From positions 3,936,001 through 4,000,000 of the forward strand of contig CBDEFM010000002.1 of assembly GCA_965237415.1 (NCBI GenBank): a stretch of DNA of 64,000 bases. Reading direction: 5' to 3'. Made by a program: the position numbers and the translations under genes. Source of the stretch: Alphaproteobacteria bacterium (GTDB lineage Bacteria > Pseudomonadota > Alphaproteobacteria > UBA828). This document shows positions 12,454-34,172 of the stretch, one piece after another; positions within the stretch are counted from its first letter, which is position 1; each line of letters opens with the position of its first letter. The notes under the pieces are model-generated. The model did no database searches and was not told the origin of the DNA. It saw only the letters and a program-made list of their open reading frames with translations.

Positions 12454-12743
12454 TGGCCGCCCGCTTCACCGTCGGCGACCGTGTCGCCGTGCGCCGTGCC
12501 TTCCCGCTCGGCCACATCCGCACGCCCTACTACGCGCGTGGCGCCGTCGGCGATGTGGAGCGCATCTGCGGCGCCTTCGGCAATCCCGAGGAGCTGGCCT
12601 TCGGGCGCGGCAACGGCCCCAGGCAGAGCCTCTACCGGGTGCGGTTCGCCCAGACGGCGCTCTGGCCGGACTATGACGGCCCGCCCGGCGATAGCATCGA
12701 CATTGAGCTCTACGAGCATTGGCTCGAGCCCGAGACGGAGTGA
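12453..12743 (+). CDS. Nitrile hydratase beta C-terminal SH3-like half (ScnA-like subunit)
   Basis: FTVGDRV, GHIRTPYYARG, LYRVRF, LWPDY, LYEHWLE; ATG overlaps the upstream TGA. Confidence 0.87.
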   Translation: MAARFTVGDRVAVRRAFPLGHIRTPYYARGAVGDVERICGAFGNPEELAFGRGNGPRQSLYRVRFAQTALWPDYDGPPGDSIDIELYEHWLEPETE

Positions 12744-12746
12744 GCG

Positions 12747-13382: not shown

Positions 13383-13445
13383 CGCCAGCCCGGCGGCGCA
13401 CGTGGGCGCCGGGCGGCCTCAGCTTGAGAGGGATCGACTCCGACT

Positions 13446-17409: not shown

Positions 17410-18207
17410 ATGAGCGCCGGTAGCGCGGGCGAAACGGCCTGGGAACTGCACGGAAGCGGCCCGGCGGTCGTACTGATCCACGGCTTCGGGCTCAACCGCG
17501 CGATGTGGCAGTGGCAGCTCCCCGCTCTCACGCCGCATTTCAGCGTGCTCACCTACGATCTGCTGGGGCACGGAGAGAGCGCGCCACCTCAGGGCACGCC
17601 CGATCTCGCCATGTTCTCCGCGCAGCTGCTCGGCCTCATGGACTGCAGCGGTATCGCGCGCGCGGCAGTCGTGGGGTTCTCGCTCGGCGGCATGATCGCC
17701 CGCCGCTTCGCGCTGGACCATCCGGACCGGCTTTCGGCGCTCGCGATTTTGAACTCGCCGCACGACCGCAGCCCCGCCCAACGCGCCGCGGTCCGCGAGC
17801 GCGTCCGTCAGACGCGGGAGCAGGGGCCTTCGGCCAACGTGGAGCCCGCCCTCGAACGCTGGTTCACGCCGGCGTTCCGCGCCGAGGCGCCAGAAACGAT
17901 CGCGCTTGTCCGCAGGTGGATCACGGGCAACGACCCGGCCGTGTATTGGCAGGTTTACCGCGTGCTCGCCGAGGGCGACGCCGAGATTGCACAGGGTCTG
18001 GAACGGATCGCTTGTCCGACCCTGGTCATGACCGGCGCGGACGACCCCGGCAACACGCCCGCCATGGCGCGGGCCATGGCCGGGCTCATCCCCGGCGCCC
18101 GTCTCGCGATTCTGCCGGGTCTCAGGCACATGGCGCTCGCCGAATCGCCGGCGGCGGTCAACGAGCCGCTCTCTGCGTTCCTCCGCGACGCGCTCGGGAC
18201 GGACTGA
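17410..18207 (+). CDS. Alpha/beta hydrolase (PcaD/TgnD-like)
   Basis: LIHGFG, DLLGHG, nucleophile elbow GFSLGG, GADD, LRHMA triad. Confidence 0.88.
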   Translation: MSAGSAGETAWELHGSGPAVVLIHGFGLNRAMWQWQLPALTPHFSVLTYDLLGHGESAPPQGTPDLAMFSAQLLGLMDCSGIARAAVVGFSLGGMIARRFALDHPDRLSALAILNSPHDRSPAQRAAVRERVRQTREQGPSANVEPALERWFTPAFRAEAPETIALVRRWITGNDPAVYWQVYRVLAEGDAEIAQGLERIACPTLVMTGADDPGNTPAMARAMAGLIPGARLAILPGLRHMALAESPAAVNEPLSAFLRDALGTD

Positions 18208-18212
18208 ACCGG

Positions 18213-19085
18213 CTACCCGAACGCGGCGAGGATGCCGACGCCACTCACCACCATGCCGACGCCGCCCCATTGCAGCGGCGAGACCGGCTCGCGCAGGAAG
18301 ATGCGCGCCAGCACCACCGTCACCACCGTGTAGCCCACGCTGGCCACGATTGCGTACTCGCCATGGGGCAGGTCGAGGCCGATGTAGAGCAGCAGGTGGC
18401 CGAGGGTATCGAGGAACCCGAAGGCCGCCAGCACGGGCCAGGCCCGCACCGGGAAGCGCACGCGTTCGCGGCGCACGAGCAGGATCGCCCCAAGCGCCAC
18501 GAAGCCGATGAGTCGCACGATCAGAACGGTCTGCCAGGGGCCGTAGATCTCGATGGCCCGGTCGGCAGCGGTGAGGGAGGCGGCGTAGGTCGCGGCGGCG
18601 ATCAGGGAGTAGATGATCGTCCGCCGCACCACGGCGGGCGCGTATTCCGGCGCTGCGCCTTCGCCCGTCGGCGTCGCCCGCGCGACCAGCCAGACCCCGG
18701 CCATGGTGGCGACCATCGCTACCCAATGGACGGGGTCGGGGCGGGCGCCGAGGGCGACAGAGATCGGCACCGCGATCGCCGGGTAGCAGGCCACCACCGG
18801 CGAGGCGAGCGACACCGGCCCGTGGGTCACGGCATGATAGAACAGGATCGAGCCGATTACGGTGCCGGCACCGATCCCTATGAGCCAGTGGATACCGTCG
18901 AGGCGCCAAACGAAGGGCTCGCCCGTCGTCGCCATGACGGCCGCAATCAGCGCGGCGCCGATCGTCATCATCGTGCAGGTCGCCACCAGGACGCCCACCG
19001 AGCGGCCGGCGAAACGCGCGACGATATCCGAGACGCCCCACGAGAGCGCGCAGCCCGCGCCCCAGGCGGCTGCGCTCTCTAGCAT
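18213..19085 (-). CDS. EamA/DMT family transporter
   Basis: About 10 hydrophobic segments, GPVSLASPV, ARIFLREPVSPLQWGG. Confidence 0.85.
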   Translation of the reverse strand: MLESAAAWGAGCALSWGVSDIVARFAGRSVGVLVATCTMMTIGAALIAAVMATTGEPFVWRLDGIHWLIGIGAGTVIGSILFYHAVTHGPVSLASPVVACYPAIAVPISVALGARPDPVHWVAMVATMAGVWLVARATPTGEGAAPEYAPAVVRRTIIYSLIAAATYAASLTAADRAIEIYGPWQTVLIVRLIGFVALGAILLVRRERVRFPVRAWPVLAAFGFLDTLGHLLLYIGLDLPHGEYAIVASVGYTVVTVVLARIFLREPVSPLQWGGVGMVVSGVGILAAFG

Positions 19086-19296: not shown

Positions 19297-20124
19297 ATGA
19301 CAGTGCGGCTTCTTCGCGCGAGACACTGGCTCGGAGGCCGCACGCCGCAATCGCGGAGGGCGCTCGTTGTGGGCTGCGCCTTGGTTCTGATCGGCTCCGC
19401 GACGGCGGGAACCCCGGCTGTCCCTGCGGAGGCGGATGGGGCGTACGCCGTGCGCGCGTCCCCGTGGGCGTCGGCTGCCGCCGAGGCGAGCGTTCTGGCC
19501 GACCGTATCCTGCAACGAGAGAGCGGCGACCTCCTGCTGGACGACAGGCGGCAGCGCACGCTCGGCCACGAGATCAAGCAGGCGTTGTCGCTCATCCGAC
19601 GCAGCTATCCGGCGATGGCATCGATTACGGCGCGGGACGCGCACGGCTCGGCGACGCTTCTTCTCGGCCTGGAGGGCGCGCTGCGCGATGCCGTCGTCGG
19701 CACGTGGGACGGCGAGAGCGTCTCCGCCCCGCCGCGAACTGGGCATGCGGCGTTCGATGCCCTCAATGCGACGCTCGGGCTCAGGGCGGTTCAGCCGTTC
19801 CCCGCCCTCGACTCGGTCGTCCTGCATCTCGACGAGCGCGCGAACATCGCTGCGGCGATCCGGGCGTATCGCGCGATCGACGGTGTCGCTTACGCTGAGC
19901 CCGACGCGGCGTTGGGGGATGGCCCCGATATCGAGGCGGCGAAAGTGCAGGGCCGCTGGCACTTCGTCTTTCGCCGGGCGTGGGGCGACTGCCCCTCCGG
20001 CTGCATCGACGAGGAGCTTTCGTTCTTCACCGTGGGGGAGGGAAAGGCCGAGCTTATCGAGCCCGCACGGGCGCGCAGCATGAATGCCTTCGCGGCGCTC
20101 CTCGCCCGCCGAATCTGGCGCTAA
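19297..20124 (+). CDS. Hypothetical exported protein with C-terminal WGDCPSGC motif
   Basis: Signal-peptide-like RRALVVGCALVLIGSATAG; IDGVAYAEPD...GDGPDI...WGDCPSGC. Confidence 0.65.
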   Translation: MTVRLLRARHWLGGRTPQSRRALVVGCALVLIGSATAGTPAVPAEADGAYAVRASPWASAAAEASVLADRILQRESGDLLLDDRRQRTLGHEIKQALSLIRRSYPAMASITARDAHGSATLLLGLEGALRDAVVGTWDGESVSAPPRTGHAAFDALNATLGLRAVQPFPALDSVVLHLDERANIAAAIRAYRAIDGVAYAEPDAALGDGPDIEAAKVQGRWHFVFRRAWGDCPSGCIDEELSFFTVGEGKAELIEPARARSMNAFAALLARRIWR

Positions 20125-20149: not shown

Positions 20150-21262
20150 TCAGGCCGCGGGCAGGTCGAAGTTGTAGAAGCGGGCGCAGTTGTTGAAGGT
20201 GATGTCCCGCCGGATCTCTTCATCGAGATGGCCGAACACGCGGTCGATCACCTTCATCGTATTCGGGTAGGTGCAGCGCGCGTGCGGGAAGTCCGAACCC
20301 CACATGATGGTCTTCGGGTCGACCACGTCCAGCACCTTGTCGAGGTAGGGATCGTCGATCAGCCCGTGGTAGATCTGGCTTAGATACGCCTCGACCGGCC
20401 GCTTGATCTTGGGGATATCCATCGCCGGGCCGAAATCGTCCTGGATCTGCTTGGCGCGGAACAGCCAATAGGGCAGCCAGCAGACCTCGTATTCCGAGAG
20501 CACCAGCTTCAGCTTCTCGAAGCGGTCGAGCACCCCGCCGAAGATGAACTCGTTGGCGAGCACGGGGCCTGCCTCCGCCAGGACATTCAGCGTGCTGCGC
20601 GCCATGTTGATGCGCTCGGACCCATGCAGGGTGAAGGGGTCGACCTCGTTGCCGGTGATGATATGGAGCGTCACCGGCTGGTCCAGCTCCTCTGCCCGCG
20701 CCCAGAAGGGATCGTAGTGCTTGTCCTGGAACGGCGGCCACTCGGGGCGCGCATCGCAGTTGATGATCACGCTCTTGAGCCCGCGCTTGGCGGTACGCTC
20801 CAGCTCCTTGCAGGCCCATTCGATGTCCGCCATGTGGATCATCGAGGTGCCGTAGAGGCGCTTCGGCGCGTGGCTGCAGTATTCGGCGAGCCAGTCGTTG
20901 AACACCTGGCACAAGTCCTCGACCAGCCGGTCGTCCCGCGCGCGCAGCGCGTAGAGCATCCAGGTGGAGTTCACGATCTCGCCGATGACGCTGTCCTCGT
21001 CCATGCAGACGAGACGGATCGCGGGGTCGATACCCGAGCCGACCAGCTTCCGCTGCAGCTCCTCGTCGCCCTCGACGATCTCGTCCACGCGGACGTATTC
21101 GAGGCCGGTGAAGAAATGATCGGCCTTGACGCCTGCATGTTCGGAGACCATGCGGGGCACGGCATCGCCGTAACGCGCACCCAGCGGCTTCGACCAGAGA
21201 TCCGCCGGCTCGATGACGTGGGAATCGCCGGAGATGACGGGGAGTTGCCCGTTCGTCGCCAT
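20150..21262 (-). CDS. Amidohydrolase_2 family metallo-hydrolase/decarboxylase
   Basis: ISGDSHVIEP, YDPFWARAEEL, LHII, GVLDRF, MWGSDFPH. Confidence 0.88.
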   Translation of the reverse strand: MATNGQLPVISGDSHVIEPADLWSKPLGARYGDAVPRMVSEHAGVKADHFFTGLEYVRVDEIVEGDEELQRKLVGSGIDPAIRLVCMDEDSVIGEIVNSTWMLYALRARDDRLVEDLCQVFNDWLAEYCSHAPKRLYGTSMIHMADIEWACKELERTAKRGLKSVIINCDARPEWPPFQDKHYDPFWARAEELDQPVTLHIITGNEVDPFTLHGSERINMARSTLNVLAEAGPVLANEFIFGGVLDRFEKLKLVLSEYEVCWLPYWLFRAKQIQDDFGPAMDIPKIKRPVEAYLSQIYHGLIDDPYLDKVLDVVDPKTIMWGSDFPHARCTYPNTMKVIDRVFGHLDEEIRRDITFNNCARFYNFDLPAA

Positions 21263-21271
21263 CGCTAGTCG

Positions 21272-22297
21272 CTAGTCCCTGAGCATGAGCAGCAGCTTCT
21301 GCCGGTAGTTGTCGGCGATCACCGCGAGGATGAGCAGGATGCCGATCACCACCAACTGCATATAGGAGCTGATGCGCAGGAGGTTCATGCCGTTCTGCAC
21401 GAGGATGATGAAGACGGCGCCCAGCACCACGTTCGGCAGCCGCCCCGTGCCGCCGAAGAGGCTGACGCCGCCGATGACGCAGGCCGCGATCGAGAGCAGC
21501 GGATACTCCTTGCCGATGTTCCCCTCGCCGCTTTCGAGGCGGGCGGTCAGCATGATAGCGCCGATGGTCGTGATCCCTGCGGTCACGACATAGGCCATGA
21601 ACAGATAGAAGCGGGTGCTGATGCCCGAGAGCTGCGAGGCCTTGAGATTGCCGCCGAGCGCGTAGAGATACCGCCCCATCCGCGTCCAGTTGAGGAAGGT
21701 GTACATCAGGATGACGAACCCGATGGTGATCCAGATCGGGACCGGGACGCCGAGCCCTCGGCCGTAACCGAGGACGTTCGCGAAGGTGTCCGGCATGCCG
21801 TAGATCGGCGTGCCCCCGGTGATCATGAGCGCGATGCCGAAGACGATGGACGACATGGCGAGCGTCATCATGAAGGGCGGCACGCGGAAGACCGCGACGC
21901 CGATGCCGTTGACCACGCCAATGCTGGTGCCGGCGCCGAAGCCCGCGAGGCAACCGATGAGGATCGCGCCCGTGCTGGCGACGCCGCCGTCCCAGGCACC
22001 GACCATGGCCATGGAGGTGATGACCGAGACCAGCGCGAACATGACGCCGACCGAGAGGTCGAGGCCCGCGGTCAGCAGCACGACCATCTGACCCATGGAG
22101 ACCATCACCAGGTAGGTCGCCTGGCGCGCGACCTGCATGAGATTGCGGCCGCTCAAGAAGTTTTCCGTGGTGATCGCGAAGACGACGACCGTGATGAGGA
22201 GGAACCAGGGAAGCACGCCCGCGCGGACGAAGATGAGCGTTGCGAAATACTCCGCTCTCTCCAATATCGTGGGGCGCTGCTGGGCGACATCGGCCAT
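21272..22297 (-). CDS. Monosaccharide-type ABC transporter permease (RbsC-like)
   Basis: GLDLSVG, VPPFMMTL, GRYLYALGGN, IAACVIGGVSLFGG. Confidence 0.92.
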   Translation of the reverse strand: MADVAQQRPTILERAEYFATLIFVRAGVLPWFLLITVVVFAITTENFLSGRNLMQVARQATYLVMVSMGQMVVLLTAGLDLSVGVMFALVSVITSMAMVGAWDGGVASTGAILIGCLAGFGAGTSIGVVNGIGVAVFRVPPFMMTLAMSSIVFGIALMITGGTPIYGMPDTFANVLGYGRGLGVPVPIWITIGFVILMYTFLNWTRMGRYLYALGGNLKASQLSGISTRFYLFMAYVVTAGITTIGAIMLTARLESGEGNIGKEYPLLSIAACVIGGVSLFGGTGRLPNVVLGAVFIILVQNGMNLLRISSYMQLVVIGILLILAVIADNYRQKLLLMLRD

Positions 22298-22313
22298 TAA
22301 CTCTTCCTCCGGG

Positions 22314-23891
22314 TCACGCCTCAGCCTCCTTCTCGAAGAAGTGGTGCAGAACCGATTCCTCCGAGATTTCCGATTGATCCAGCTCGGCGCGCAGTTCGCC
22401 GCGGTACATGACGTAGGCACGGTGCGTGAGGTGCAGTATCTCCGGCAGGTCCGATGAGATCAGGAGAACGCCGGCGCCGGCCTCGCAAAGATCGCGGATG
22501 AACTCGTAGATCGCCACGCGCGCGCCCACGTCGACGCCGACCGTCGGCTCGTCGAAGATGAACAGCTTGACGTCGCGCACCAATGACTTGCCCACGAGCA
22601 CCTTCTGCTGGTTGCCACCTGAGAAATGCTCGAGATTGCGCTCTATGTTGAGCGGCATCAGGTCCAGATCCCGCGCGATGTCGCGCACGACCTTGCGTTC
22701 GTTGGCCCTGCGCAGAAAGAGGGGGTTCGAGAACTTGGAGAGCCCGAGCGAGGGCAGCGCCACATTCTCCCGCACGTTCTGCATCATGATCAGGCCCTCT
22801 TTGCGGCGGTCCGAGGGCAGGTAGTAGACGCCGCGGTCGAGCATCCGGCGCGGGCCCAGCTTGTTCACGTGCTTGGCTCGGTCGTAGACGACCTCGCCGT
22901 CGAAGGCGATCGAGCCAGCCCTGATGCGTTCGAGGCCGAAGCATGCACGGCCGAGGTCGGACTTGCCCGACCCCACCAGGCCAGCGAGGCCCACCACTTC
23001 GCCGCGCCGCACGTTGATCGAGACGTCGTTCACGTAGTGCTTCGCGGTGATGAGCCCTTCGATCTCCAGCAGGGTTTCCGCCGGGTTGCGCTCGATGTGC
23101 GGGAAGATCTGGTCGATGACCCGGCCGGTCATCAGCTCGACGAGCTTCTGGTCGCTCGCTTCCTCGACGGGAATGGTGTCGATGTGAACCCCGTCGCGCA
23201 GCACGGTGATGCGATCGCCGATCCGCTTGATCTCGTTCATCCGGTGGGTGATGTAGATGATGCCGATGCCTTCGGACTTGATCTGCTCGATCAGCCCGAA
23301 CAGCCGGTCGGTCTCGCGTTCCGTGAGCGAGGCGGTCGGCTCGTCGAAGATCATGATATCGGGCCGGGTGCGGAAGGCCTTGGCGATCTCCACCATCTGC
23401 TGCTCGGCGCGGGAGAGGTACATCACCTCGTCCCGCGGCCTGAGCGGGAAGCCCAGGCGGTCCAGCGTCTCGCGCGCCTGCCTGGCGAGCGCCGCCTTAT
23501 TGAGGAGCGGCCCCCGCGTCAGCTCATCGCCGAGGAACAGGTTCTCCTCGACCGTGAGCTGCGGCACCAGCGAGAATTCCTGAAACACGGCGCTCACGCC
23601 GAGCTGGCGTGCGTGATGCACCGAGTGAATGACGGTCGGCTGGCCACGCAGATGGATCGTTCCGCCGGACGGCCTGTGGACGCCGGCGACGACCTGAATC
23701 AGCGTCGATTTGCCCGCGCCGTTCTCGCCGAACAGCACGTGCACTTCGCCCGCGCGCACGTCGAAATTGACGCGATCGAGCGCGAGCGTGCCGGGAAATT
23801 GCTTCGAGAGATTTTCTAGCCTGAGAAGGACATCCCCGGAGGCGTGGGCCTCCGGGGACTCCTCAAGTGCAACGGCTGATGGTTCTGCCAC
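22314..23891 (-). CDS. Monosaccharide-type ABC ATP-binding protein (two NBDs, RbsA-like)
   Basis: GENGAGKST, DEPTASL, SDRRKEG, SGGNQQK, DEPTVGVDVG. Confidence 0.94.
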   Translation of the reverse strand: MAEPSAVALEESPEAHASGDVLLRLENLSKQFPGTLALDRVNFDVRAGEVHVLFGENGAGKSTLIQVVAGVHRPSGGTIHLRGQPTVIHSVHHARQLGVSAVFQEFSLVPQLTVEENLFLGDELTRGPLLNKAALARQARETLDRLGFPLRPRDEVMYLSRAEQQMVEIAKAFRTRPDIMIFDEPTASLTERETDRLFGLIEQIKSEGIGIIYITHRMNEIKRIGDRITVLRDGVHIDTIPVEEASDQKLVELMTGRVIDQIFPHIERNPAETLLEIEGLITAKHYVNDVSINVRRGEVVGLAGLVGSGKSDLGRACFGLERIRAGSIAFDGEVVYDRAKHVNKLGPRRMLDRGVYYLPSDRRKEGLIMMQNVRENVALPSLGLSKFSNPLFLRRANERKVVRDIARDLDLMPLNIERNLEHFSGGNQQKVLVGKSLVRDVKLFIFDEPTVGVDVGARVAIYEFIRDLCEAGAGVLLISSDLPEILHLTHRAYVMYRGELRAELDQSEISEESVLHHFFEKEAEA

Positions 23892-23939
23892 TGTGATGGG
23901 CCTCCACCAGTCTCGTTCTTAGTCAGCACGAAAGCGTGC

Positions 23940-25118
23940 TTAGTCGGTGCTGAACACCGGCGACCAGCCCTTGGGTGCGAGCGTCGTGGTGGTGTCGAAG
24001 TCCCCGTGGTTCTCCGGCGTCACCTGCATCGCCACCGGCTGCACATGCTCGATCATCCGACCGGTGTCGTTGTACTCGGGCCGACCGCCGGTCGCCGACG
24101 GCTTGCCCTCGAGGATGCGGACCGCCTGGTCGATGGCGATCCGCGACTGGATGATCATCTGGTCGGTCGGCGCCATGGCGACGCTGCCGCGGCCGACGAA
24201 CTGATGCATGCCGGGCGTGTAGTAGTAGGAGACGAGCTTGATCTCGTCCTGCAGGCCCAGGTCGCGGAGCGCGGCCATGCCGCCCTCGACCGCCGGCGCG
24301 ACGCCCACGATGTAGTCGAGATCGACGTCGTCGCCCGAGGTCTGTGCCTGAATCACGTCCTCGACGAGCTTGAGCTGGACCTCCTTACTGGTCTGGCCCC
24401 ACTTGGTCGAGATGACCTCGGCGTCGGTGCCCACGACTGCATCGTGGCAGCCCTGATTGCCGGCGACCGACCAGCTGGCTCCGGGCGGTCCCGGGAACCA
24501 GGCCAGCTTGACGTTGCCGCTGCCTGCGGGGTGCTGATCGGCGATCCACTTACAGGCGATGTGACCCATACTGTAGTAGCTTTCCAGCGACTTGGCATCG
24601 ACTTCGGTGTTGATCCCGTTGATCAGGTCGATCACCGGGATACCGCGGCCGCGCAACTCGTTCACCTGCTTGACGCTGCCCTCGGCGGAAATCGCGGAAA
24701 GTACGAGGATCTCGGCGCCGTTCGCGATGCAGTCCTCGACCTGTGAGAGCTGCCGCTCGAGCTTGTCGTAGCCGCCGGCTTCGATCAGGGAGATCTTCTG
24801 GCCGAGGCGCGTGCCCTCCTCGATGATCCCGTAGGCCGCGCCGACCCAGTAGGAGTCAACGAGGTGGGGGAAGGACACGCAGATATGGTGCTTGGCATCC
24901 ACCTCATCGGGCATCAGCGGCACGTAGTCCACGACCTCGAGGTTCTGGTTGGCGGGATCGGTCCAGCACGCCGGGTCGCCGTCGGTGCAGGACGGATTGT
25001 AAATCTCGACTTTGGCCGGCCACCAGACGCCGTCGTCTTGTGCCCGAGCGTCGGAGGCGGCGAAGCTGGACATAGCCATGCCCGCCGCGACTGCGACGCC
25101 TAAGGTCAGTTTCCACAT
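23940..25118 (-). CDS. torT: TorT-like periplasmic binding protein
   Basis: Signal peptide; ICVSFPHLVDSYW, EAGGY, WFPGP, KEVQLKLVED, IAIDQAVRILEGK, TLAPKGW match the TorT family. Confidence 0.75.
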   Translation of the reverse strand: MWKLTLGVAVAAGMAMSSFAASDARAQDDGVWWPAKVEIYNPSCTDGDPACWTDPANQNLEVVDYVPLMPDEVDAKHHICVSFPHLVDSYWVGAAYGIIEEGTRLGQKISLIEAGGYDKLERQLSQVEDCIANGAEILVLSAISAEGSVKQVNELRGRGIPVIDLINGINTEVDAKSLESYYSMGHIACKWIADQHPAGSGNVKLAWFPGPPGASWSVAGNQGCHDAVVGTDAEVISTKWGQTSKEVQLKLVEDVIQAQTSGDDVDLDYIVGVAPAVEGGMAALRDLGLQDEIKLVSYYYTPGMHQFVGRGSVAMAPTDQMIIQSRIAIDQAVRILEGKPSATGGRPEYNDTGRMIEHVQPVAMQVTPENHGDFDTTTTLAPKGWSPVFSTD

Positions 25119-25156
25119 AGTCGTCTCTCCCTCTGGTCATGGACCCGTATCGGCGA

Positions 25157-25183
25157 AGGCGCCGGTAAACTTCGCCGGCGCCT
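25157..25183. other. GC-rich stem-loop between nicX and the binding-protein gene
   Basis: AGGCGCCGG / CCGGCGCCT arms. Confidence 0.5.
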
Positions 25184-25303
25184 ATGCCATCACGTCTCCG
25201 TGCGGCGCGCATATTACGGTTCGACGTACCGCACCGCAAATACCCATCTTCGCTCGCGAAACCCGCCCCATCGCCGGTGTAAAGGGCAGGGATACGCGCC
25301 GAA

Positions 25304-26344
25304 TCAGTGGGCCGGCGCCCGCATGTCCTCAGGCACGACCGCGCCGTCCTCCACGACGAGCTCGTCGTCGAGCCAGAGCGAACAGCCCTGCATCGGCAGG
25401 TCGAGGTGGCAGGGCGTGTCGTTCTCGCCGCCGAACTCCGTATCGGGGCCGAGCGAGAACAGCACGTTGCCGTAGTGCGCGCGGCCGTCCATCCCGATGC
25501 CCGGCAGGTCGGGCCGCCAGATGCAGTGATGGTTCAGGCCCCAGCCGATGTGCGAGACCGCGTAGGCACGCGGGTCGTTATAACCCTCGATGAAGCCGCG
25601 CAGGTTGTCGGCGCGCGCACCGCCGCTGATCTCCGTCACCATGCCGCCCTCGATCTCGAAGGCGATCCGCTCGCCGGTGAATTCGCGGAGCGGGAAGACG
25701 ATGTCGTCGGCCTCCATCACCACCCGACCGTTCACGCCGCGCTCGGCCGCAAGTGTCGCGAGGAAGCCCCCCGGCCAGTGGTCCCAGCGCCCAGGCTTCG
25801 TGGTGTAGCCGTACTCCGTCAGGATCGGCTTGTCGGCGAGCGTGTAGGTCACGTCCGTGCCGGCATCGTTGGTGAAGCGGAGCCGCTCCGCCGCGGTGAG
25901 TCGCCGCTCGCCGGCCTCGACGCGCGCGCGCATCTCGGCGGTCGGGAACAGGCGCTCCAGAATCTCCACCGGCTCCACGACGAGCAGGATGCGGGAGTCC
26001 GCCTCTTGCATCGCAATCTGCTCGTGGGAGAAGAGGAGGAGCATGTGGTCGACGACCATGTCGGCGTCCTTGCAGGTCTGCATCGCCTCCGGGTGCTTGC
26101 TCAACGCGTTCTGCCCGATATTGGCGATCCTGACCGCCGGGTCCTCCGCGCCGTCCGAGGGGAGGTGCACGTCCGCCACATCGGCGCCGAGGTCGCGCGC
26201 CGCGGCCAGCGAGGCTTCTCTATAGTTCCCGAGCTGATCGCCTTCCGAAAGGACGGCGACCGTCTCCCCCGGCCCTACCTCGCAGAGCTCCAGGTTGCGC
26301 CTGAACAGCTCCGTCAGTCGTGCCTGATCCTGCTGTGTGCTCAT
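25304..26344 (-). CDS. nicX: 2,5-dihydroxypyridine 5,6-dioxygenase (NicX family)
   Basis: RILLVVEP, TEYGY..PGRWDHWPGGF, SHIGWGL, MDGRAHYGNVLFSLGP, TPCHLDLP (His/His/Asp iron ligands), colinear with recalled P. putida NicX. Confidence 0.82.
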   Translation of the reverse strand: MSTQQDQARLTELFRRNLELCEVGPGETVAVLSEGDQLGNYREASLAAARDLGADVADVHLPSDGAEDPAVRIANIGQNALSKHPEAMQTCKDADMVVDHMLLLFSHEQIAMQEADSRILLVVEPVEILERLFPTAEMRARVEAGERRLTAAERLRFTNDAGTDVTYTLADKPILTEYGYTTKPGRWDHWPGGFLATLAAERGVNGRVVMEADDIVFPLREFTGERIAFEIEGGMVTEISGGARADNLRGFIEGYNDPRAYAVSHIGWGLNHHCIWRPDLPGIGMDGRAHYGNVLFSLGPDTEFGGENDTPCHLDLPMQGCSLWLDDELVVEDGAVVPEDMRAPAH

Positions 26345-26355
26345 GATTTCGGCTC

Positions 26356-27627
26356 CTATTCCGCCGCGCTCACCAGCGCCGTGTAGCCGCCGTCGCGCGG
26401 CTCCCTGCTGCGCGAGGCGCTCTCGCGCAGGGCTTCCTCGCCATCCTGGCGGCGCCTGGCACGGGCCTCGTCGTCTTCGCTCAAGAGTTTGTCGAGATAG
26501 TAGTTGAGAAGATGATGGATGGCGCGCTCCAGCTTGACCGTCGGCCCCGGCCGGAAGGCGCGCGAGCCGACGCCGTTCTGGAGCGATTCCAGCATCGCCC
26601 GGTCCTCGTTCGCGACCAGCCGGATGAAGTCGGCATAAATCTGGCTCTTCTCCTCGAAGGCCGGCTCGTCGAAATAGGCGTCGGGCAATTGCGTGTAGAT
26701 GATGATCTGGGTGGTGGTGTGGTCGATCGGCAGCGCCACCCAAGGCTGGATCAGGTCGTGGCGGCCGAAGATGTTCATGGTCGGCCGGATCCACGTGGTG
26801 CACGCGAACTTGTCCGTCACCTTGCCCTTGAGCCACGGCATGGTGTCGAAGAGCGTGACGCCGTTCGGCGCCATGGTGAAGCTCTCGTAGGCGGCGTTGT
26901 AACCGTTCTTCTGCAGGTTGAAGCGGAAGTCGTTGACCGGGAAGTGCCCGCCGAATGACTCATTGTGGATCACGCCGACGTGGTACATGTCCATCAGATT
27001 CTCGGGGATGAACTTCCAATTGCACGGCACGTCGAAGACGTACTTGTCCGATGTCCGCGTGTTCTCCGGCTGCAGGAACGCCGCGAACTCCCTGATCCCG
27101 TCCTCGTCCAGATAGTCTGCGAGGCTCGGGCAGTCGGGGTCGAAGTTCACGAAGATGTAGCCGCCCCACGTATCGAGATTGACCCGCGGCAGCGCGCACG
27201 ATGCGAAGTCGAAGCCTTCGACCTCCTTCGAGTGCGGCGCGCCGAGCAGCTTGCCCTCCAGGTCGTAGACCCAGGAGTGATAGGGGCAACGGAAGCTCTT
27301 GCACGTCCCTTCGCCGGTCGCGACCTCGACGCCCCGGTGCCGGCAGACGTTGTTGAAGGCGTTAAGGGCGCCGTTGGCGTCGCGACAGACGAGCAGGGGC
27401 TCGCCCGCGATCCGCATGGCCCGGTAGTCGCCTTCGTTCTCGAACTCCTCCACGCGGCCGACGCAGAGCCACTCCTTCATGAAGATGGTTTCGACCTCGT
27501 AGTCGAAGATCTCGGGCGCCGTGTAAAGGAAGCCCGGCAAATGCCGCGCCTGGCCGAGGTTCCGGCGCGTCTCCCTGATCGCCTCGAGAATGCTCTCGTC
27601 GAGCGTGACGCCCCGATTCTGCATCAC
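26356..27627 (-). CDS. Rieske non-heme iron oxygenase alpha subunit (choline monooxygenase/CntA-like)
   Basis: Rieske CRHRG...CPYHSW; NWKFIPENLMDMYHVGVIH; NED iron ligand. Confidence 0.9.
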   Translation of the reverse strand: MMQNRGVTLDESILEAIRETRRNLGQARHLPGFLYTAPEIFDYEVETIFMKEWLCVGRVEEFENEGDYRAMRIAGEPLLVCRDANGALNAFNNVCRHRGVEVATGEGTCKSFRCPYHSWVYDLEGKLLGAPHSKEVEGFDFASCALPRVNLDTWGGYIFVNFDPDCPSLADYLDEDGIREFAAFLQPENTRTSDKYVFDVPCNWKFIPENLMDMYHVGVIHNESFGGHFPVNDFRFNLQKNGYNAAYESFTMAPNGVTLFDTMPWLKGKVTDKFACTTWIRPTMNIFGRHDLIQPWVALPIDHTTTQIIIYTQLPDAYFDEPAFEEKSQIYADFIRLVANEDRAMLESLQNGVGSRAFRPGPTVKLERAIHHLLNYYLDKLLSEDDEARARRRQDGEEALRESASRSREPRDGGYTALVSAAE

Positions 27628-27702
27628 TCAATTTCCCCCTTTGTTTGCCATTTCCGCCAGTATAGCGGCCCGCCCCCGGCGAGTCCGCAGGCGCCGACGC
27701 GT

Positions 27703-29019
27703 CTACACAGGGCAGCGGGTGAGCAGGCGGCCCTCGTCGTCGAAGCGGAGCGCTTCTGCCTCCCCCAGCACCGTTCCGTCGCCGTTCAGCTCGGCGGCGA
27801 GCGGCGGCGAAACGAGTATCGTCTCCAGATGCAGGGTCGAGCGGATCAGGCAAAGCCGCGCCTCGGCCCCGTCGAGCCGCCAGCTGGTGCCGACGGCGGC
27901 CTGCAGCGCCGCCTTGTCGCTCGCGAGCACGGCCGGGATTCGCACCCGCTCGGTAAACGTCGCGGTGCAGGCGTTCATATACATGGCATAGAGGTCGAGT
28001 TGGTCGGCGACCGCCTTGGTCGTGTAGTCGGCCGAGCCTACGCCGAGACCGTTGCCGTGGGTCTCCGGCGTCAGCCCCAGCACCACCAGCTTGCTGATCA
28101 CCGGTGCCGGCGGGTTCGGGCGCCCGCGGATGTCGTAGCGCGCGGTGACCGCAGGATCCATGCCGGTGCCGGAGATGTTCTTGCCGAGCCTTTCCACCGC
28201 GAGCACGTCGATCTGCTCGAAGGGGAGCTTGGGGATGCAGCCCTTGGCCGTCTTCAGCAGGCGGGCGTCGGTCTCGTAGAAGGCCTCGGGCTCGGCGCCT
28301 TCGATCACCGCCGCCTCGCGCGCGGCGTTCTCGACGATGGCGATGCCGTAGGCGACCGGGGCCTCGCGGATGACGATGCGCGCCCACTCGGGCAGCACCT
28401 CCATGTAGCCGCGCACGCCGAGGCGATGCACAAAGCGTGCGCCCTCGGCCTTGCCGAGGCCGATGGCGACCATCTTGGTGAGCCCGCTCTCCACCTCCCG
28501 GTCGAAGGAGGTGTGAGACTTGACCCGGCCCACCACCAGCACGGCGTCGGCCTCGAAGGCGCGGCGGTCGAAATGGACCGCTATGCCCGCGCTGGTTTCG
28601 CCCAGCCGCACGACCTCCATGCTGGCCTCGATGGGGCAGCCCATGGCCTCTTCCGTGAAGCCGAGCTCGGCCAGCAGCGTCACCTGGCCGGTGGCGACGG
28701 CGCCGCCGTGACTGCCCATCGCCGGCACGATGAAGGGTGCGAGCTCGCGGTCCTTGAGCCAGGCGACCGCAGCCTTGACCACCGCGGGCTTGCTGCGGAT
28801 GCCCCGGCTGCCGCACGTGATCGCCACGCGCGCGCCTGCCGCGAGCGCGGTGAGCCGCTGCGAGGCATCGAGGGCCGCGCGGGTGGCGGCGGCTACGTCG
28901 TCGAGCGCCGGAACGTCGGGGTGACGCAGCGCCACCGGCATCACCGGCGGCAGCGGCTCGCTCTCGAACTGCGGCAGCGCGATGGCGGGGAAGGTCGGGC
29001 TCGGCGTGTTCAGGGTCAT
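27703..29019 (-). CDS. Lactate racemase (LarA/DUF2088)-like domain protein
   Basis: GSRGI, PAMGSHGGA, RVKSHTSF, ESGLTKMVAIGLGK, GKNISGTGMD, HGNGLGVG. Confidence 0.75.
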   Translation of the reverse strand: MTLNTPSPTFPAIALPQFESEPLPPVMPVALRHPDVPALDDVAAATRAALDASQRLTALAAGARVAITCGSRGIRSKPAVVKAAVAWLKDRELAPFIVPAMGSHGGAVATGQVTLLAELGFTEEAMGCPIEASMEVVRLGETSAGIAVHFDRRAFEADAVLVVGRVKSHTSFDREVESGLTKMVAIGLGKAEGARFVHRLGVRGYMEVLPEWARIVIREAPVAYGIAIVENAAREAAVIEGAEPEAFYETDARLLKTAKGCIPKLPFEQIDVLAVERLGKNISGTGMDPAVTARYDIRGRPNPPAPVISKLVVLGLTPETHGNGLGVGSADYTTKAVADQLDLYAMYMNACTATFTERVRIPAVLASDKAALQAAVGTSWRLDGAEARLCLIRSTLHLETILVSPPLAAELNGDGTVLGEAEALRFDDEGRLLTRCPV

Positions 29020-29068
29020 GGTGGCACGATACACCAGAGCGGCGCCGGTCAGAACGTCGGCTTACGGA

Positions 29069-29494
29069 TTAGTGGAGCGGCCCCGGCGGGCGCTCGCTAG
29101 TGCGGGGCGCGGGCTGGGCTTGCCCGGCGGGTCCGGCCTGATGGTGGACCATGAGCCAGCCGGCCGGCTCGCGTGCGAAGACGTTGGTGGCAATCAGCTG
29201 GCCCTGCTCCAGAACCTCGCGGCAGATCACGAAGGCGCTCGGTCCGAGGACGAACGCCCGCGGCCCCTCGCAGCGGATCTGCGGCGCGCCCGCACCGCCG
29301 AGGATCGCAGCCCAGCTCTCCATCACCATGTCGCGCCCGACCAGCGCGTCCCAGCCCGGATGAATGCAGGCCACAGGCGCTTCTCTGGCCCAGAGCGCAT
29401 CCATCGCCGCGAGGTCGCGGGTGGTAAAGGCACGGTAGAACTCCTGATTGGCGGCGAGCACCGCTTCTTCGTCCGACGTCGCTTGGTCCGGCAT
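29069..29494 (-). CDS. SnoaL-like/NTF2 family protein
   Basis: ANQEFYRAF, CIHPGW, ATNVF, WLMVHHQA. Confidence 0.85.
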   Translation of the reverse strand: MPDQATSDEEAVLAANQEFYRAFTTRDLAAMDALWAREAPVACIHPGWDALVGRDMVMESWAAILGGAGAPQIRCEGPRAFVLGPSAFVICREVLEQGQLIATNVFAREPAGWLMVHHQAGPAGQAQPAPRTSERPPGPLH

Positions 29495-29515
29495 GGCCGC
29501 TCCTCCTCGCGCCTC

Positions 29516-31129: not shown

Positions 31130-31147
31130 AGGATTCGCGCGGTGCCG

Positions 31148-32187
31148 CTAGGGGATCAGCACCGCGCGGCCCTTGACCGTGCCGGCGTGGAGGTCGTGCA
31201 GCGCCCGGTTGGCGTCGGCGAGCGCGTACTCGCGGGTAGCCAGCGTCACCAGCCCCCGGTCGGCAAGCGCCATGAGCTCGACCAGCTCCGCATAGGTGCC
31301 CACCAGATTGCCGACGATGGTCTTCTCCGAGACGATCATGTCGATCGCCGGGATCTGGACGCGGCCGCCGTAGCCCACGATGTAGTAGAAGCCGTCGTTC
31401 CGCGTCATGGCGAGGCCCTTGTCGATGGCATCGCCCTCGCCGACGAAGTCGATCACCGCTTCCGCGCCGTGCCCGCCGGTGAGCGAGAGCACCTCGTCCA
31501 CCGCGCCCTCGTCGGCGCGCAACACGTGGTGCGCGCCGCATTCCTTGGCGAGACCCAGCGCGAGGTCGGAGCGGTCGAGCACGATGATCTCGGCCGCGCA
31601 GAGCGCCGCAAGGGACTGGATACCGATGTGGCCGAGCCCGCCGGCGCCGATGATCACCGCGTATTCGCCCGGCACCAGATGCGCGGCGGCCTTCTTGGCG
31701 ACGCGGTAGGCGGTGAGGCCTGCGTCGGTATAGGGGGCCACGTCCTTGGGCGCGAGGCTCTGGGGCAGCTTGATCAGGGCGCGCTCGCCGGTCAGCAGAT
31801 AGTCGGCGTAGCCGCCGGCTGCGTTGATGCCGGGGAAGCTGCTCTCGCTCGCGTGCATGTCGTTGCCGCGCCGGCAGGCGAGGCAGTGGCCGCTGGTTAC
31901 CAGCGGGTGGCAGATCACCGCGTCGCCGACCTTGACGCTTTCCACGCCTGAGCCGACCTCTTCCACCCAGCCCGCGTTCTCGTGCCCCATGATGTGGGGG
32001 AAGGCGACATCCACATGCCCCCGCCACACGCCCTCGATGATGTGGAGGTCGGTGCGGCAGACGCCTGCGCCGCCGATGCGGACGATGACATCCGTGGGCT
32101 TCGCGATCGTGGGATCGGGCACCTCCTCGTAGGTCACGAATTCGGGCTGGGTGAGGGATTCGTCGTAGCCGTGGAGCGTCGCTGCCT

Positions 32188-32191
<4 letters not shown>
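31148..32191 (-). CDS. Zn-dependent NAD(P) alcohol dehydrogenase
   Basis: GVCRTDLH, GHENAG, GAGGLG, GRAVLIP. Confidence 0.92.
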
Positions 32192-33273
<1,082 letters not shown>

Positions 33274-33277
33274 GCAC

Positions 33278-34141: not shown

Positions 34142-34172
34142 GGCGACCCCAGGCGCGTGCGCGCGCGCACGC

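What the first reader, a model, noticed from the sequence alone, without database searches (positions are those of the whole stretch)
20150..27627. Candidate new pyridine-catabolic operon: Rieske oxygenase, NicX, TorT-like ABC importer, amidohydrolase_2
Seen: six co-oriented genes, with an 11-bp gap between Rieske and nicX and a 9-bp gap between permease and amidohydrolase. Knowledge: in the picolinate pathway a Rieske oxygenase (PicB), an amidohydrolase_2 decarboxylase (PicC) and a NicX-type dioxygenase (PicD) convert 6-hydroxypicolinate via 2,5-dihydroxypyridine to N-formylmaleamate. Here the same fold trio occurs, but the Rieske looks choline-monooxygenase/CntA-like with no beta subunit or reductase gene, the importer is TorT/ribose-type, and nicD/E/F are not adjacent. 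This suggests a different substrate (N-methylated or N-oxide pyridine) and possibly a new lower pathway in which the amidohydrolase acts as deformylase. This is my best candidate for an undescribed system.
Basis: partly seen in the sequence, partly recalled or inferred. Interest (0 to 1): 0.75.

Follow-up and report, generated by a model that had tools for sequence, protein, structure and literature searches.

The report
Pyridine ring-cleavage pair beside importer-oxygenase unit
Six neighbouring genes of an uncultured alphaproteobacterium form two separable units, a Rieske oxygenase with a genuine pyridine-ring-opening enzyme and a nutrient importer with an unusual two-metal-type oxygenase that had been taken for a hydrolase, so this is probably a variant route for breaking down pyridine compounds.

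Summary
The six co-oriented minus-strand genes and the 11-nt and 9-nt gaps are real.

**Two units, not one operon:**
- **Unit A (27627-25304):** an alpha-only Rieske oxygenase, followed 11 nt later by a true NicX homologue. It matches P. putida NicX at E 4e-79 and keeps all four Fe ligands.
- **Unit B (25118-20150):** a TorT-like CUT2 ABC importer plus a PF04909 protein.

**The PF04909 protein looks like an oxygenase.** Its nearest solved relatives are the dinuclear oxygenases PtmU3 and DitZ, not decarboxylases. It has their D-x-H and D-x-P-H ligand motifs, but Arg replaces the final D/E. Paralogues sit beside 2Fe-2S/flavin reductases.

**The units are separable.** They lie together in 15 of 20 genus relatives. 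They are 1.1-1.6 Mb apart in two genomes, and unit B was not found in one 92%-complete genome.

**Pyridine role of unit A.** Its orthologues in gammaproteobacterial MAGs sit in nic-like clusters with a Mo hydroxylase and NicD-, NicE- and NicF-type genes.

**Verdict:** the pyridine-catabolic reading is supported for unit A. The decarboxylase or deformylase role for the PF04909 protein is not. The substrate is unknown. I rate it a new variant of a known kind, of moderate interest.

The parts
26356..27627 (-). Alpha-only Rieske non-haem iron oxygenase (423 aa), unit A
   Evidence: Pfam Rieske 2.3e-21 and Ring_hydroxyl_A 4.2e-22. Best solved relative is CntA, 5.2e-41, aligned over residues 27-362. 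CxH/CxxH cluster ligands and the H216/H221/D catalytic-iron ligands align with those of CntA. NCBIfam GbcA scores 144.9 bits, far below its cut-off of 670.
25304..26344 (-). NicX-family Fe(II) 2,5-dihydroxypyridine 5,6-dioxygenase homologue (346 aa), unit A
   Evidence: E 4e-79 to P. putida NicX (7cn3), residues 7-343. Fe ligands H265, S297, H313, D315 are kept, as are E177, H189, R288 and E303. Its start lies 11 nt after the Rieske stop.
25119..25303 (-). 185-nt intergenic region with a promoter-like core conserved across the genus, then a conserved box and a stem-loop
   Evidence: The alignment of 8 genus loci keeps TTTGC, a 17-nt spacer, a TAATAT-like hexamer, GGAGACGTG and a paired stretch whose sequence differs between subgroups. 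There is no Rfam match and no hit in the consensus scan. Promoter function is inferred.
23940..25118 (-). TorT-like CUT2 periplasmic binding protein (392 aa), unit B
   Evidence: Peripla_BP_4 4.8e-23. NCBIfam TorT NF008185 scores 282 bits against a cut-off of 200, but TIGR02955 scores 207.6 against 310. Best solved relative is 4yhs, a CUT2 ABC binding protein, at 8.6e-83; TorT 3o1h scores 1.5e-39.
22314..23891 (-). Tandem-cassette ABC ATPase of the sugar/CUT2 type (525 aa), unit B
   Evidence: ABC_tran x2. It resembles AraG, XylG and RbsA but stays below all equivalog cut-offs.
21272..22297 (-). CUT2 permease, unit B
   Evidence: BPD_transp_2 2.3e-25. The ATG lies 16 nt after the ATPase stop and is preceded by GGAGGAAG.
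20150..21262 (-). PF04909 protein related to the dinuclear oxygenases PtmU3 and DitZ (370 aa), with motif D13-S-H15 and D324-F-P-H-A-R329, unit B
   Evidence: PDB sequence search: PtmU3 8.7e-39, DitZ 6.4e-19, best decarboxylase 1.5e-12. The model has pLDDT 94.6. Foldseek ranks PtmU3 3.5e-24 (TM 0.82), DitZ 1.1e-20, ACMSD 4e-17. Motifs.
18213..19085 (-). EamA-family transporter, a conserved neighbour of the PF04909 gene; possibly belongs to unit B
   Evidence: EamA 3e-30. An EamA gene also follows the PF04909 orthologue in another genus (L125) and lies beside it in L021 and L022.
17410..18207 (+). Alpha/beta hydrolase, a weak candidate for N-formylmaleamate deformylase
   Evidence: It is the best own-genome match (31.6% identity) to the hydrolase that follows NicX in the gammaproteobacterial cluster L031. 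It is PcaD-like but below cut-off. It was not seen within about 10 kb in L013-L015. Membership of the system is doubtful.

Best explanation
The block is two juxtaposed catabolic units.

Unit A is a 'hydroxylate, then cleave' pair. An alpha-only Rieske monooxygenase needs a reductase encoded elsewhere. It turns a pyridine precursor, most likely a hydroxypyridine or a hydroxylated pyridine carboxylate, into 2,5-dihydroxypyridine or a close analogue. This is the role played by the flavoenzyme NicC in the nicotinate pathway and by PicB+PicC in the picolinate pathway. The NicX homologue then opens the ring with Fe(II) and O2 to N-formylmaleamate.

Unit B probably has its own promoter. It imports a small polar nitrogen compound through a TorT-like CUT2 ABC system and oxidises it with a PF04909 enzyme. 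That enzyme works like the amidohydrolase-related dinuclear (Fe/Mn) oxygenases PtmU3 and DitZ. It is not a decarboxylase or a deformylase.

In this genus the two units usually lie side by side, so unit B may deliver or prepare the substrate of unit A (my odds about 0.4). They are not obligately coupled.

Shown: gene identities, ligand motifs, and the synteny patterns. Inferred: every catalytic step, the substrate, the promoter and the link between the units.
For: NicX: E 4e-79 to the solved enzyme. The four Fe ligands are kept in 83 of 83 homologues aligned, and E177+H189 in 69 of 83, this one included.

The Rieske-NicX pair:
- It is adjacent in 19 of 20 genus relatives.
- It is adjacent in 7 loci outside the genus: L029, L030, L031, L034, L035, L048, L049.
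- A paralogous pair exists in L018/L052.
- In L031 the pair lies in one run with CoxG, a three-subunit Mo hydroxylase, a second Rieske, an SDR, a NicD-like hydrolase and a maleate-isomerase-like gene. L030 adds an isochorismatase.
- In L052 the pair lies with a Mo hydroxylase and an amidase.
- No flavin NicC-type gene was seen among the ORFs scanned in those clusters.
- Of 8 NicX loci without the orthologous Rieske, 4 carry another alpha-only Rieske within two genes: L032, L033, L037, L044.

The PF04909 protein: closest solved relatives are PtmU3 and DitZ. D-S-H and D-F-P-H are present. Paralogues of 55-57% identity lie next to DmmA_N+Fer2 reductases (L130, L131).

Modularity:
- The importer and the PF04909 gene stay linked in two other genera, without Rieske-NicX nearby (L125, L129).
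- G018 and G077 carry both units 1.6 and 1.1 Mb apart.
- L025/G020 has unit A only.
- The 185-nt gap has a conserved promoter-like core.

Expression: contigs from four metatranscriptome libraries of two studies tile all six genes.
Against: - No activity is shown for any protein.
- The PF04909 protein fails the last position of the published oxygenase motif D-x-P-H-x-D/E: it has Arg. Decarboxylases share its fold, with Foldseek E values only about 7 orders of magnitude weaker.
- No reductase or ferredoxin lies in the window's cluster. The only PF00175 reductase in the genome is 1.7 Mb away, with an identical copy on the other contig.
- The lower maleamate pathway is incomplete by my queries. 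No maleate-isomerase match was found. The best NicF-like gene (58% identity) lies about 68 kb away in an unrelated-looking operon. The NicD candidate is weak.
- In genus g2 (G021) and in G024 the Rieske and NicX orthologues are not adjacent.
- Contigs from RNA libraries bridge the 185-nt gap in 3 of 4 runs. This fits read-through from unit A as well as a separate promoter; DNA carry-over is not excluded.
- The Rieske's best relatives, CntA and GbcA, act on quaternary amines, which fits a demethylase role as well as ring hydroxylation.
Confidence: 0.6

Rival explanations
1. All six genes form a single operon for one pyridine substrate, in which the PF04909 protein is a PicC-like non-oxidative decarboxylase or an N-formylmaleamate deformylase acting between or after the Rieske and NicX steps.
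For: All six genes are co-oriented with short gaps and are kept together in 15 of 20 genus relatives. PF04909 does contain decarboxylases, PicC among them. Contigs from RNA libraries bridge every junction. The cluster holds no NicD-type gene.
Against: The PF04909 protein scores 8.7e-39 to PtmU3 but only 1.5e-12 to the best decarboxylase. It has D-x-H and D-x-P-H; the paper read reports that no characterised PF04909 hydrolase or decarboxylase has these motifs. Its paralogues sit beside reductases. The two units separate in G018, G077, G020 and G021. Where the Rieske-NicX pair occurs in gammaproteobacterial clusters, the deformylase slot is taken by an alpha/beta hydrolase and no PF04909 gene is present.
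Confidence: 0.1
2. A coupled pathway for an N-methylated pyridinium betaine such as trigonelline or homarine. The TorT-like protein binds the quaternary nitrogen. The CntA/GbcA-like Rieske, or the PF04909 oxygenase, removes the N-methyl group as formaldehyde. The other oxygenase hydroxylates the ring, and NicX cleaves the product.
For: The Rieske's best solved relative is carnitine monooxygenase CntA, and its best NCBIfam model is GbcA. The binding protein passes one TorT model. Known relatives of the PF04909 protein hydroxylate aliphatic C-H bonds. Several runs that hold this DNA are labelled sponge metagenome; that sponges are rich in such betaines is my recollection and comes from no call.
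Against: The GbcA score is 144.9 against a cut-off of 670 and covers the N-terminal half only. The alignment to CntA scores only 144 bits. Orthologous Rieske-NicX pairs lie next to Mo hydroxylases, as in nicotinate or picolinate clusters, with no sign of formaldehyde handling. No binding-site test was possible. The units are separable.
Confidence: 0.15
3. The two units are functionally unrelated neighbours. Unit B takes up and oxidises a non-pyridine compound, for example a methylated amine, an amide or a cyclic amide. Unit A is fed by pathways encoded elsewhere, such as Mo hydroxylases acting on nicotinate or picolinate.
For: The units are separated by over 1 Mb in G018 and G077, and unit B was not found in G020. 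PF04909 orthologues and paralogues elsewhere keep company with Amidohydro_1, alpha/beta hydrolases, RidA, SDR, a dimethylformamidase-like gene and DmmA-like reductases, not with NicX. The own genome has at least 5 Mo-hydroxylase large subunits.
Against: Both units are adjacent in 15 of 20 genus relatives, down to 82-88% protein identity. Both units are present in nearly all genus genomes. Contigs from RNA libraries run across the gap.
Confidence: 0.3

Closest known systems
NicX / PicD / Hpo: Fe(II) 2,5-dihydroxypyridine 5,6-dioxygenases of the maleamate pathway (P. putida nic cluster, A. faecalis pic cluster)
   Same: Full-length homology to solved NicX (E 4e-79). The same four Fe ligands (His, Ser, His, Asp) and the Glu177/His189 substrate contacts.
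   Different: In the window it lies beside no nicC, nicD, nicF or nicE gene. Its upstream partner is an alpha-only Rieske oxygenase rather than a flavin monooxygenase. Residue 105 is Phe, not His; none of the 83 homologues aligned has His there (75 Phe, 7 Trp, 1 Tyr), and the H105F variant of NicX is reported to remain active.
PicB, the four-component Rieske 6-hydroxypicolinate 3-monooxygenase (bioRxiv 10.1101/530550)
   Same: A Rieske oxygenase that acts upstream of a 2,5-dihydroxypyridine dioxygenase in a pyridine pathway.
   Different: PicB has large and small oxygenase subunits, a ferredoxin and a reductase encoded together. Here there is a single alpha subunit of the CntA/VanA-like homotrimeric type, with no partner genes.
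Amidohydrolase-related dinuclear oxygenases (AROs): PtmU3, DitZ, SfbO, AibH1H2 (PMC10811679, PMC13154177)
   Same: PF04909 TIM barrel. PtmU3 and DitZ are the closest solved relatives by sequence and by fold. N-terminal D-x-H and C-terminal D-x-P-H are present. Paralogues are linked to reductases.
   Different: The last motif position is Arg rather than Asp or Glu, in 99 of 109 full-length relatives. The published D-x-P-H-x-D/E filter would therefore miss this subfamily. There is no Rieske ferredoxin or reductase next to this copy. Its partner is an ABC importer.
TorT, the TMAO-binding periplasmic protein of the TorS/TorR sensor system
   Same: It passes NCBIfam NF008185 (282 bits against a cut-off of 200) and matches solved TorT at 1.5e-39.
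   Different: It is encoded with an ABC ATPase and a permease, not with a TorS kinase. It is closer to a CUT2 transporter binding protein (4yhs, 8.6e-83). It is below the TIGR02955 cut-off.

Membership tests
NicX-type 2,5-dihydroxypyridine 5,6-dioxygenase | Fe(II) ligands His265, Ser302, His318, Asp320 (P. putida numbering; PMC7910607) | tested here: met
   They align to H265, S297, H313 and D315. They are invariant in 83 of 83 homologues aligned.
NicX-type 2,5-dihydroxypyridine 5,6-dioxygenase | Substrate-positioning residues Leu104-His105, Glu177, His189 | tested here: inconclusive
   L104, E177 and H189 are kept; residue 105 is Phe. None of the 83 homologues has His there. The paper reports that H105F and H105M retain activity while H105A does not (passages).
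NicX-type 2,5-dihydroxypyridine 5,6-dioxygenase | O2-dependent cleavage of 2,5-dihydroxypyridine to N-formylmaleamate | not testable with these tools
   This needs an enzyme assay.
Rieske non-haem iron oxygenase, alpha subunit | CxH...CxxH Rieske cluster motif and a 2-His-1-carboxylate catalytic iron site | tested here: met
   C95/H97, C114/H117, H216/H221 and the Asp of 'nED' align with the corresponding CntA residues. Both Pfam domains are above cut-off.
GbcA / CntA quaternary-amine monooxygenases | Score above the curated equivalog cut-off | tested here: not met
   GbcA NF058607 scores 144.9 bits against a cut-off of 670, over the N-terminal half only. CntA scores 144 bits.
PicB-type four-component ring-hydroxylating oxygenase | Adjacent genes for a small subunit, a ferredoxin and a reductase | tested here: not met
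   None of these lies in the block or its flanks. PF00175 occurs only at C1:707382 and C2:2229989.
PF04909 non-oxidative decarboxylases (PicC, ACMSD, LigW, gamma-resorcylate decarboxylase) | Closest similarity to decarboxylases, and their N-terminal metal motif rather than D-x-H | tested here: not met
   The best decarboxylase scores E 1.5e-12, against 8.7e-39 for PtmU3. The N-terminus is D-S-H. The paper states that characterised hydrolases and decarboxylases of this fold use other motifs. PicC itself could not be compared because no sequence of it was at hand.
Amidohydrolase-related dinuclear oxygenases (ARO) | N-terminal D-x-H on the first beta strand | tested here: met
   D13-S14-H15 lies on strand 9-16 of the model. 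D-S-H is present in 107 of 109 full-length relatives.
Amidohydrolase-related dinuclear oxygenases (ARO) | C-terminal D-x-P-H-x-D/E motif | tested here: not met
   The sequence is D324-F-P-H-A-R329. Asp, Pro and His are kept, but the last residue is Arg. Arg occurs in 99 of 109 full-length relatives. I therefore do not file it as an ARO by the published definition, only as ARO-like.
Amidohydrolase-related dinuclear oxygenases (ARO) | A redox partner (Rieske ferredoxin or reductase) encoded nearby | tested here: inconclusive
   None lies next to this copy. DmmA_N+Fer2 reductases lie next to the paralogues in L130 and L131, and a small Fer2 gene lies near L128. The paper notes that partner genes are largely absent near one ARO subclass.
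TorT (TMAO sensor partner) | Curated model scores, and pairing with a TorS kinase | tested here: inconclusive
   NF008185 is above cut-off and TIGR02955 is below it. The neighbours are an ABC ATPase and a permease, not a kinase.
Complete maleamate (nic/pic lower) pathway cluster | NicD-, NicF- and NicE-type genes encoded with NicX | tested here: not met
   They are not in the block. In the genome, the best NicD-like match is 31.6% identical (window 17410-18207), the NicF-like match is 58% identical at C2:3893042-3893755, and there is no NicE-like match with the L031 query. The feature is met in the gammaproteobacterial loci L030 and L031.

The most novel reading that the evidence does not exclude
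A previously undescribed route to 2,5-dihydroxypyridine in which no molybdenum hydroxylase and no flavin monooxygenase takes part. A TorT-like ABC system imports a pyridine carboxylate or pyridinium betaine, possibly host-derived in sponge-associated bacteria. An Arg-variant member of the amidohydrolase-related dinuclear oxygenases performs the first oxidation (ring or N-methyl). An alpha-only Rieske monooxygenase performs the second. NicX then opens the ring. This would give the dinuclear oxygenase superfamily its first role in heteroaromatic catabolism, and would define a subfamily that the published motif filter misses.
Probability: 0.15. Interest if true: 0.75.

Novelty: new variant of a known kind. 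Interest (0 to 1): 0.5.

Why it matters
2,5-Dihydroxypyridine is the hub of most known aerobic pyridine pathways (nicotinate, picolinate, nicotine, hydroxypyridines). In all described cases it is made by flavin monooxygenases, by the multicomponent PicB with PicC, or by diiron enzymes.

This analysis shows an alpha-only Rieske oxygenase paired with NicX in several lineages: the orthologous pair in 7 loci outside the genus, and other alpha-only Rieske types beside NicX in 4 further loci. That points to an unassayed class of 2,5-dihydroxypyridine-forming enzymes. I found no paper describing it in three full-text searches.

The 'amidohydrolase' in the block belongs to an Arg-variant subfamily of PtmU3/DitZ-like proteins. 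By inference the published D-x-P-H-x-D/E filter excludes it, although members sit beside reductases. Testing it would show whether the dinuclear oxygenase superfamily is wider than the roughly 17,000 sequences reported.

The carriers are uncultured alphaproteobacteria, and the DNA occurs in runs labelled sponge metagenome. The substrate could therefore bear on host-symbiont nitrogen exchange.

Tried and rejected
1. **His105 to Phe as a sign of a new substrate: rejected.** None of the 83 homologues has His at this site (75 Phe, 7 Trp, 1 Tyr), including those from Delftia, Achromobacter and Bordetella. H105F NicX is reported active.
2. **KpiC as a precedent: rejected.** KpiC is the 'amidohydrolase' that cleaves 3,4-dihydroxypyridine, but it belongs to PF01979, not PF04909.
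3. **Riboswitch or known RNA in the gaps:** no Rfam match at E up to 1.
4. **Consensus promoter/terminator scan:** 2 promoter-like hits inside genes and 0 terminators, which is no better than shuffles.
5. **Ligand of the closest binding-protein structure, 4yhs:** one unrelated paper mentions the code, so no ligand information was obtained.
6. **DUF3891, a companion gene in the gammaproteobacterial clusters:** no paper found.
7. **Trigonelline + Rieske + demethylase search:** 10 papers were listed, none on a pyridine pathway of this kind by title or abstract. I did not read them.
8. **The 797-aa open frame over NicX in L016 as a possible fusion: rejected.** Only the NicX part matches anything solved, so it is probably a high-G+C artefact.
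9. **Reductases of L130 and L131 as queries against the own genome:** no match over at least 60% of their length.
10. **Depth of the RNA-library contigs:** it looks higher over the binding-protein gene, but contig depth cannot rank genes, so I draw nothing from it.
12. **The family-scan cap (12 of 12) was used up.** Because of this, L036 and most of the 80 NicX loci were never scanned for neighbouring families.

Full report
**Observation**

The window is high in G+C (about 0.64-0.73). It lies at C2:3936001-4000000 of a 4.75-Mb, two-contig genome. The record titles of its closest relatives call them uncultured Alphaproteobacteria or Rhodospirillales MAGs.

Six minus-strand genes occupy 27627-20150. 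I read the junctions directly:

| Junction | Gap | Note |
|---|---|---|
| Rieske TAG to nicX ATG | 11 nt | GGAG overlaps the stop codon |
| Binding-protein TAA to ATPase GTG | 48 nt | holds a 6-bp hairpin |
| ATPase TGA to permease ATG | 16 nt | |
| Permease TAG to PF04909 ATG | 9 nt | |

**The NicX homologue**

Pfam and NCBIfam have no model that matches it, even at E up to 10 for Pfam. It aligns end to end with solved P. putida NicX (7cn3, E 4e-79).

The Nature Communications paper on NicX (PMC7910607, passages read) names the key residues:
- Fe ligands: His265, Ser302, His318, Asp320.
- Substrate contacts: Leu104, His105, Glu177, His189.

Here the four ligands, Glu177 and His189 are all present. 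Residue 105 is Phe. I first took this for a substrate signal. However, none of the 83 homologues aligned from 80 loci has His there (75 Phe, 7 Trp, 1 Tyr), and the paper reports H105F as active. So it carries no signal.

**The Rieske protein**

It has both Pfam domains of an oxygenase alpha subunit. It also has the cluster and catalytic-iron ligands, by alignment to CntA. CntA is its best solved relative (5.2e-41). The GbcA equivalog model scores 144.9 bits against a cut-off of 670, so it is not a member of that family.

All 120 listed relatives are unnamed or generically named metagenomic proteins. No beta subunit, ferredoxin or reductase lies nearby. The only PF00175 domains in the genome belong to a 437-aa Fer2-FAD-NAD reductase present as two identical copies, 1.7 Mb away and on the other contig.

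**The 'amidohydrolase_2' protein**

Sequence search of the PDB gives PtmU3 at 8.7e-39 and DitZ at 6.4e-19, while the best decarboxylase scores 1.5e-12. A confident model (pLDDT 94.6) gives the same order by Foldseek:

| Match | E value |
|---|---|
| PtmU3 (TM 0.82) | 3.5e-24 |
| DitZ | 1.1e-20 |
| ACMSD | 4e-17 |
| SfbO | 1e-16 |

PtmU3, DitZ, SfbO and AibH2 are 'amidohydrolase-related dinuclear oxygenases' (AROs). I read the first of three parts of the text of PMC10811679, and sections of PMC13154177. The later paper defines AROs by an N-terminal D-x-H and a C-terminal D-x-P-H-x-D/E. It states that no characterised PF04909 hydrolase or decarboxylase has these motifs.

The window's protein has D13-S-H15 and D324-F-P-H-A-R329. 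All positions are kept except the last, which is Arg. In most AROs that last residue only hydrogen-bonds a metal-bound water; in PtmU3 it binds the metal directly.

The Arg is a subfamily trait:
- It is present in all 11 orthologues and paralogues taken from loci.
- It is present in 99 of 109 full-length database relatives. The other 10 read A, G, P or D and I did not inspect them.

Two paralogues of 55-57% identity lie directly beside reductases with DmmA-like_N and 2Fe-2S domains (L130, L131). I conclude that it works like an ARO oxygenase (odds about 0.65). Because one defining position is not met, I do not file it as a member.

**Two units, not one**

*Within the genus (20 relatives):*
- Rieske and NicX are adjacent in 19. 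The exception, G010, is 62% complete.
- The PF04909 gene lies 4-5 kb beyond NicX in 15.
- In G018, a single complete contig, the importer-PF04909 set is 1.6 Mb from Rieske-NicX.
- In G020 (92% complete; locus L025) unit A is present, but no orthologue of the PF04909 protein or of the binding protein was found.
- G001 has the units on different small contigs.
- G007 (67% complete) shows no PF04909 orthologue.

*Outside the genus:*
- G077 has both units 1.1 Mb apart.
- G021 keeps the PF04909 gene next to the importer, divergently oriented. Its NicX and Rieske genes are on other contigs.

*The 185-nt gap.* It has a core conserved across 8 genus loci: TTTGC, a 17-nt spacer, a TAATAT-like hexamer, then GGAGACGTG and a stem-loop whose sequence differs between subgroups. 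I read this as a promoter and a structured leader for unit B; this is inference only. Against it, contigs from RNA libraries cross the gap in 3 of the 4 runs laid. That fits read-through, and DNA carry-over cannot be excluded.

**What unit A does**

The orthologous pair (Rieske 50-75%, NicX 52-68% identity) recurs in 7 loci outside the genus.

- **L031:** one run of genes reads CoxG; the three subunits of a Mo hydroxylase; a second Rieske; an SDR; DUF3891; an AtzH-like gene on the opposite strand; the Rieske; NicX; an alpha/beta hydrolase; a maleate-isomerase-like gene.
- **L030:** has an isochorismatase just upstream of the pair.
- **L052:** a paralogous pair in the same genus, with a Mo hydroxylase and an amidase.

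These are nic- or pic-like clusters. Among the ORFs I scanned, no NicC-type flavin monooxygenase appears, and the Rieske sits where it would.

Of 8 NicX loci lacking the orthologous Rieske, 4 carry a different alpha-only Rieske within two genes of NicX:
- L032 and L037, of VanA_C type;
- L033, of Aromatic_hydrox type;
- L044, of Ring_hydroxyl_A type.

Three of these four also have a hydrolase or a reductase alongside. I therefore commit to the Rieske forming the NicX substrate by ring hydroxylation, possibly decarboxylative (odds about 0.55). N-demethylation is the main alternative.

Three full-text searches found only PicB as a Rieske enzyme in a 2,5-dihydroxypyridine pathway. PicB is a four-component enzyme.

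**What unit B does**

The binding protein passes one TorT model and fails the other. It is much closer to a CUT2 transporter binding protein, 4yhs, than to TorT. It is encoded with a sugar-type ATPase and permease.

The PF04909 family is rare in the class: 8 of 301 genomes at E up to 1e-40, the own genome included. Its members keep company with CUT2 importers, Amidohydro_1, alpha/beta hydrolases, RidA, SDRs and reductases; one locus also has a dimethylformamidase-like gene. This suggests a small nitrogen-containing substrate, but I cannot name it.

I used the neighbours of NicX in L030 and L031 as queries against the genome:
- The best NicD-like match is the window's own alpha/beta hydrolase at 17410-18207 (31.6% identity).
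- A NicF-like isochorismatase (58% identity) lies at C2:3893042-3893755, beside a Zn-dehydrogenase.
- No maleate-isomerase match was found.
- An orthologue (56% identity) of the second Rieske of L031 lies in the window at 60726-62048.

**Expression**

The stretch is held by 20 of the 24 listed runs, from 9 studies. Eight of these are on record as RNA, and several are labelled sponge metagenome. Contigs from four metatranscriptome libraries of two studies tile all six genes, and each junction is bridged in at least two runs. This shows presence in RNA libraries. It shows neither transcript boundaries nor expression levels.

**Verdict**

The genes and the gaps are real. The pyridine-cleavage reading holds for the Rieske-NicX pair. 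The PicC-like or deformylase role for the PF04909 protein does not hold: it is an Arg-variant, PtmU3/DitZ-like putative oxygenase tied to the importer. The 'operon' is two separable units whose functional link is open.

I rate it a new variant of a known kind, with interest 0.5. I could not see supplements of the ARO papers, which may list this subfamily.

Noticed in passing
window 27703-38030 (- strand): Directly upstream of the Rieske gene (75-nt gap) runs a second co-oriented set. It holds a nickel-pincer-cofactor isomerase of LarA 'group 22' (NCBIfam 477.6 bits against a cut-off of 400), a SnoaL-like protein, a ThDP enzyme, a Zn-dehydrogenase and a MalK-type ABC importer with two ATPases. 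The substrate is unknown. The LarA-like gene is absent next to the Rieske gene in L014 and L015.
   Followed up: partly
G000:C2:1632231-1637970 (L103 8232-13971): Two tandem paralogues of the PF04909 protein (46-48% identity, both with D-S-H and D-F-P-H-x-R) lie between a two-domain glyoxalase-type extradiol dioxygenase and a bicupin. The layout recalls the AibH1H2 heterodimer.
   Followed up: partly
window 23892-23939 and 23940-25118: A 6-bp hairpin (AGCACG cttt CGTGCT) sits just after the binding-protein stop codon. In all four runs, contigs from RNA libraries over the binding-protein gene carry much higher depth figures than those over the ATPase, permease and PF04909 genes. Contig depth cannot rank genes, so this is only a hint of segmental mRNA stability.
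   Followed up: no
window 60726-62048 (- strand): A second alpha-only Rieske oxygenase is 56% identical to the 'second Rieske' of the gammaproteobacterial nic-like cluster L031. Here it lies 33 kb from NicX, beside aspartyl-tRNA synthetase and a HAD hydrolase.
   Followed up: partly
protein P0104 (metagenomic, 312 aa, contig of 2,609 bases): A gene call joins an N-terminal 2Fe-2S ferredoxin-like domain to the C-terminal two thirds of a 77%-identical PF04909 protein that lacks the D-S-H end. It could be a natural fusion that supports a redox role, or a mis-assembly.
   Followed up: no
window 12100-15122 (+ strand): Nitrile hydratase beta and alpha subunits are followed by an Amidohydro_3 protein. 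They are preceded by an SDR and an enoyl-CoA hydratase. CoxD/CoxE-like maturation genes for Mo hydroxylases lie at 7805-10113, without a Mo hydroxylase in the window.
   Followed up: no
window 19297-20124 (+ strand): A 275-aa opposite-strand gene with a signal-like N-terminus and a fervidolysin-prodomain-like stretch is wedged between the PF04909 gene and the EamA transporter. In another genus (L125) these two genes are direct neighbours.
   Followed up: no
G000:C1:706770-707678 and C2:2229989-2230897; C2:14119-14889 and C2:1142918-1143688: The Fer2-FAD-NAD reductase and a DUF3891 gene each occur as two copies with identical scores. This suggests repeated or duplicated assembly regions; genome contamination is estimated at 6.35%.
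   Followed up: no
window 27700-27703: Contigs from two RNA libraries (X6, X10) carry 729 extra letters between the LarA-like gene and the Rieske gene. Related strains therefore differ by an insertion at this junction (table 5).
   Followed up: no
G000:C2:2212000-2231999 (L132): This island holds orthologues (66-73% identity) of the alpha/beta hydrolase and Amidohydro_1 genes that flank the PF04909 gene in genus g2. It also holds a dimethylglycine-dehydrogenase-like DAO-GCV_T protein, an M20 peptidase, a PhyH dioxygenase, two amidases, a second CUT2 importer and the reductase. It may be the rest of unit B's pathway.
   Followed up: partly
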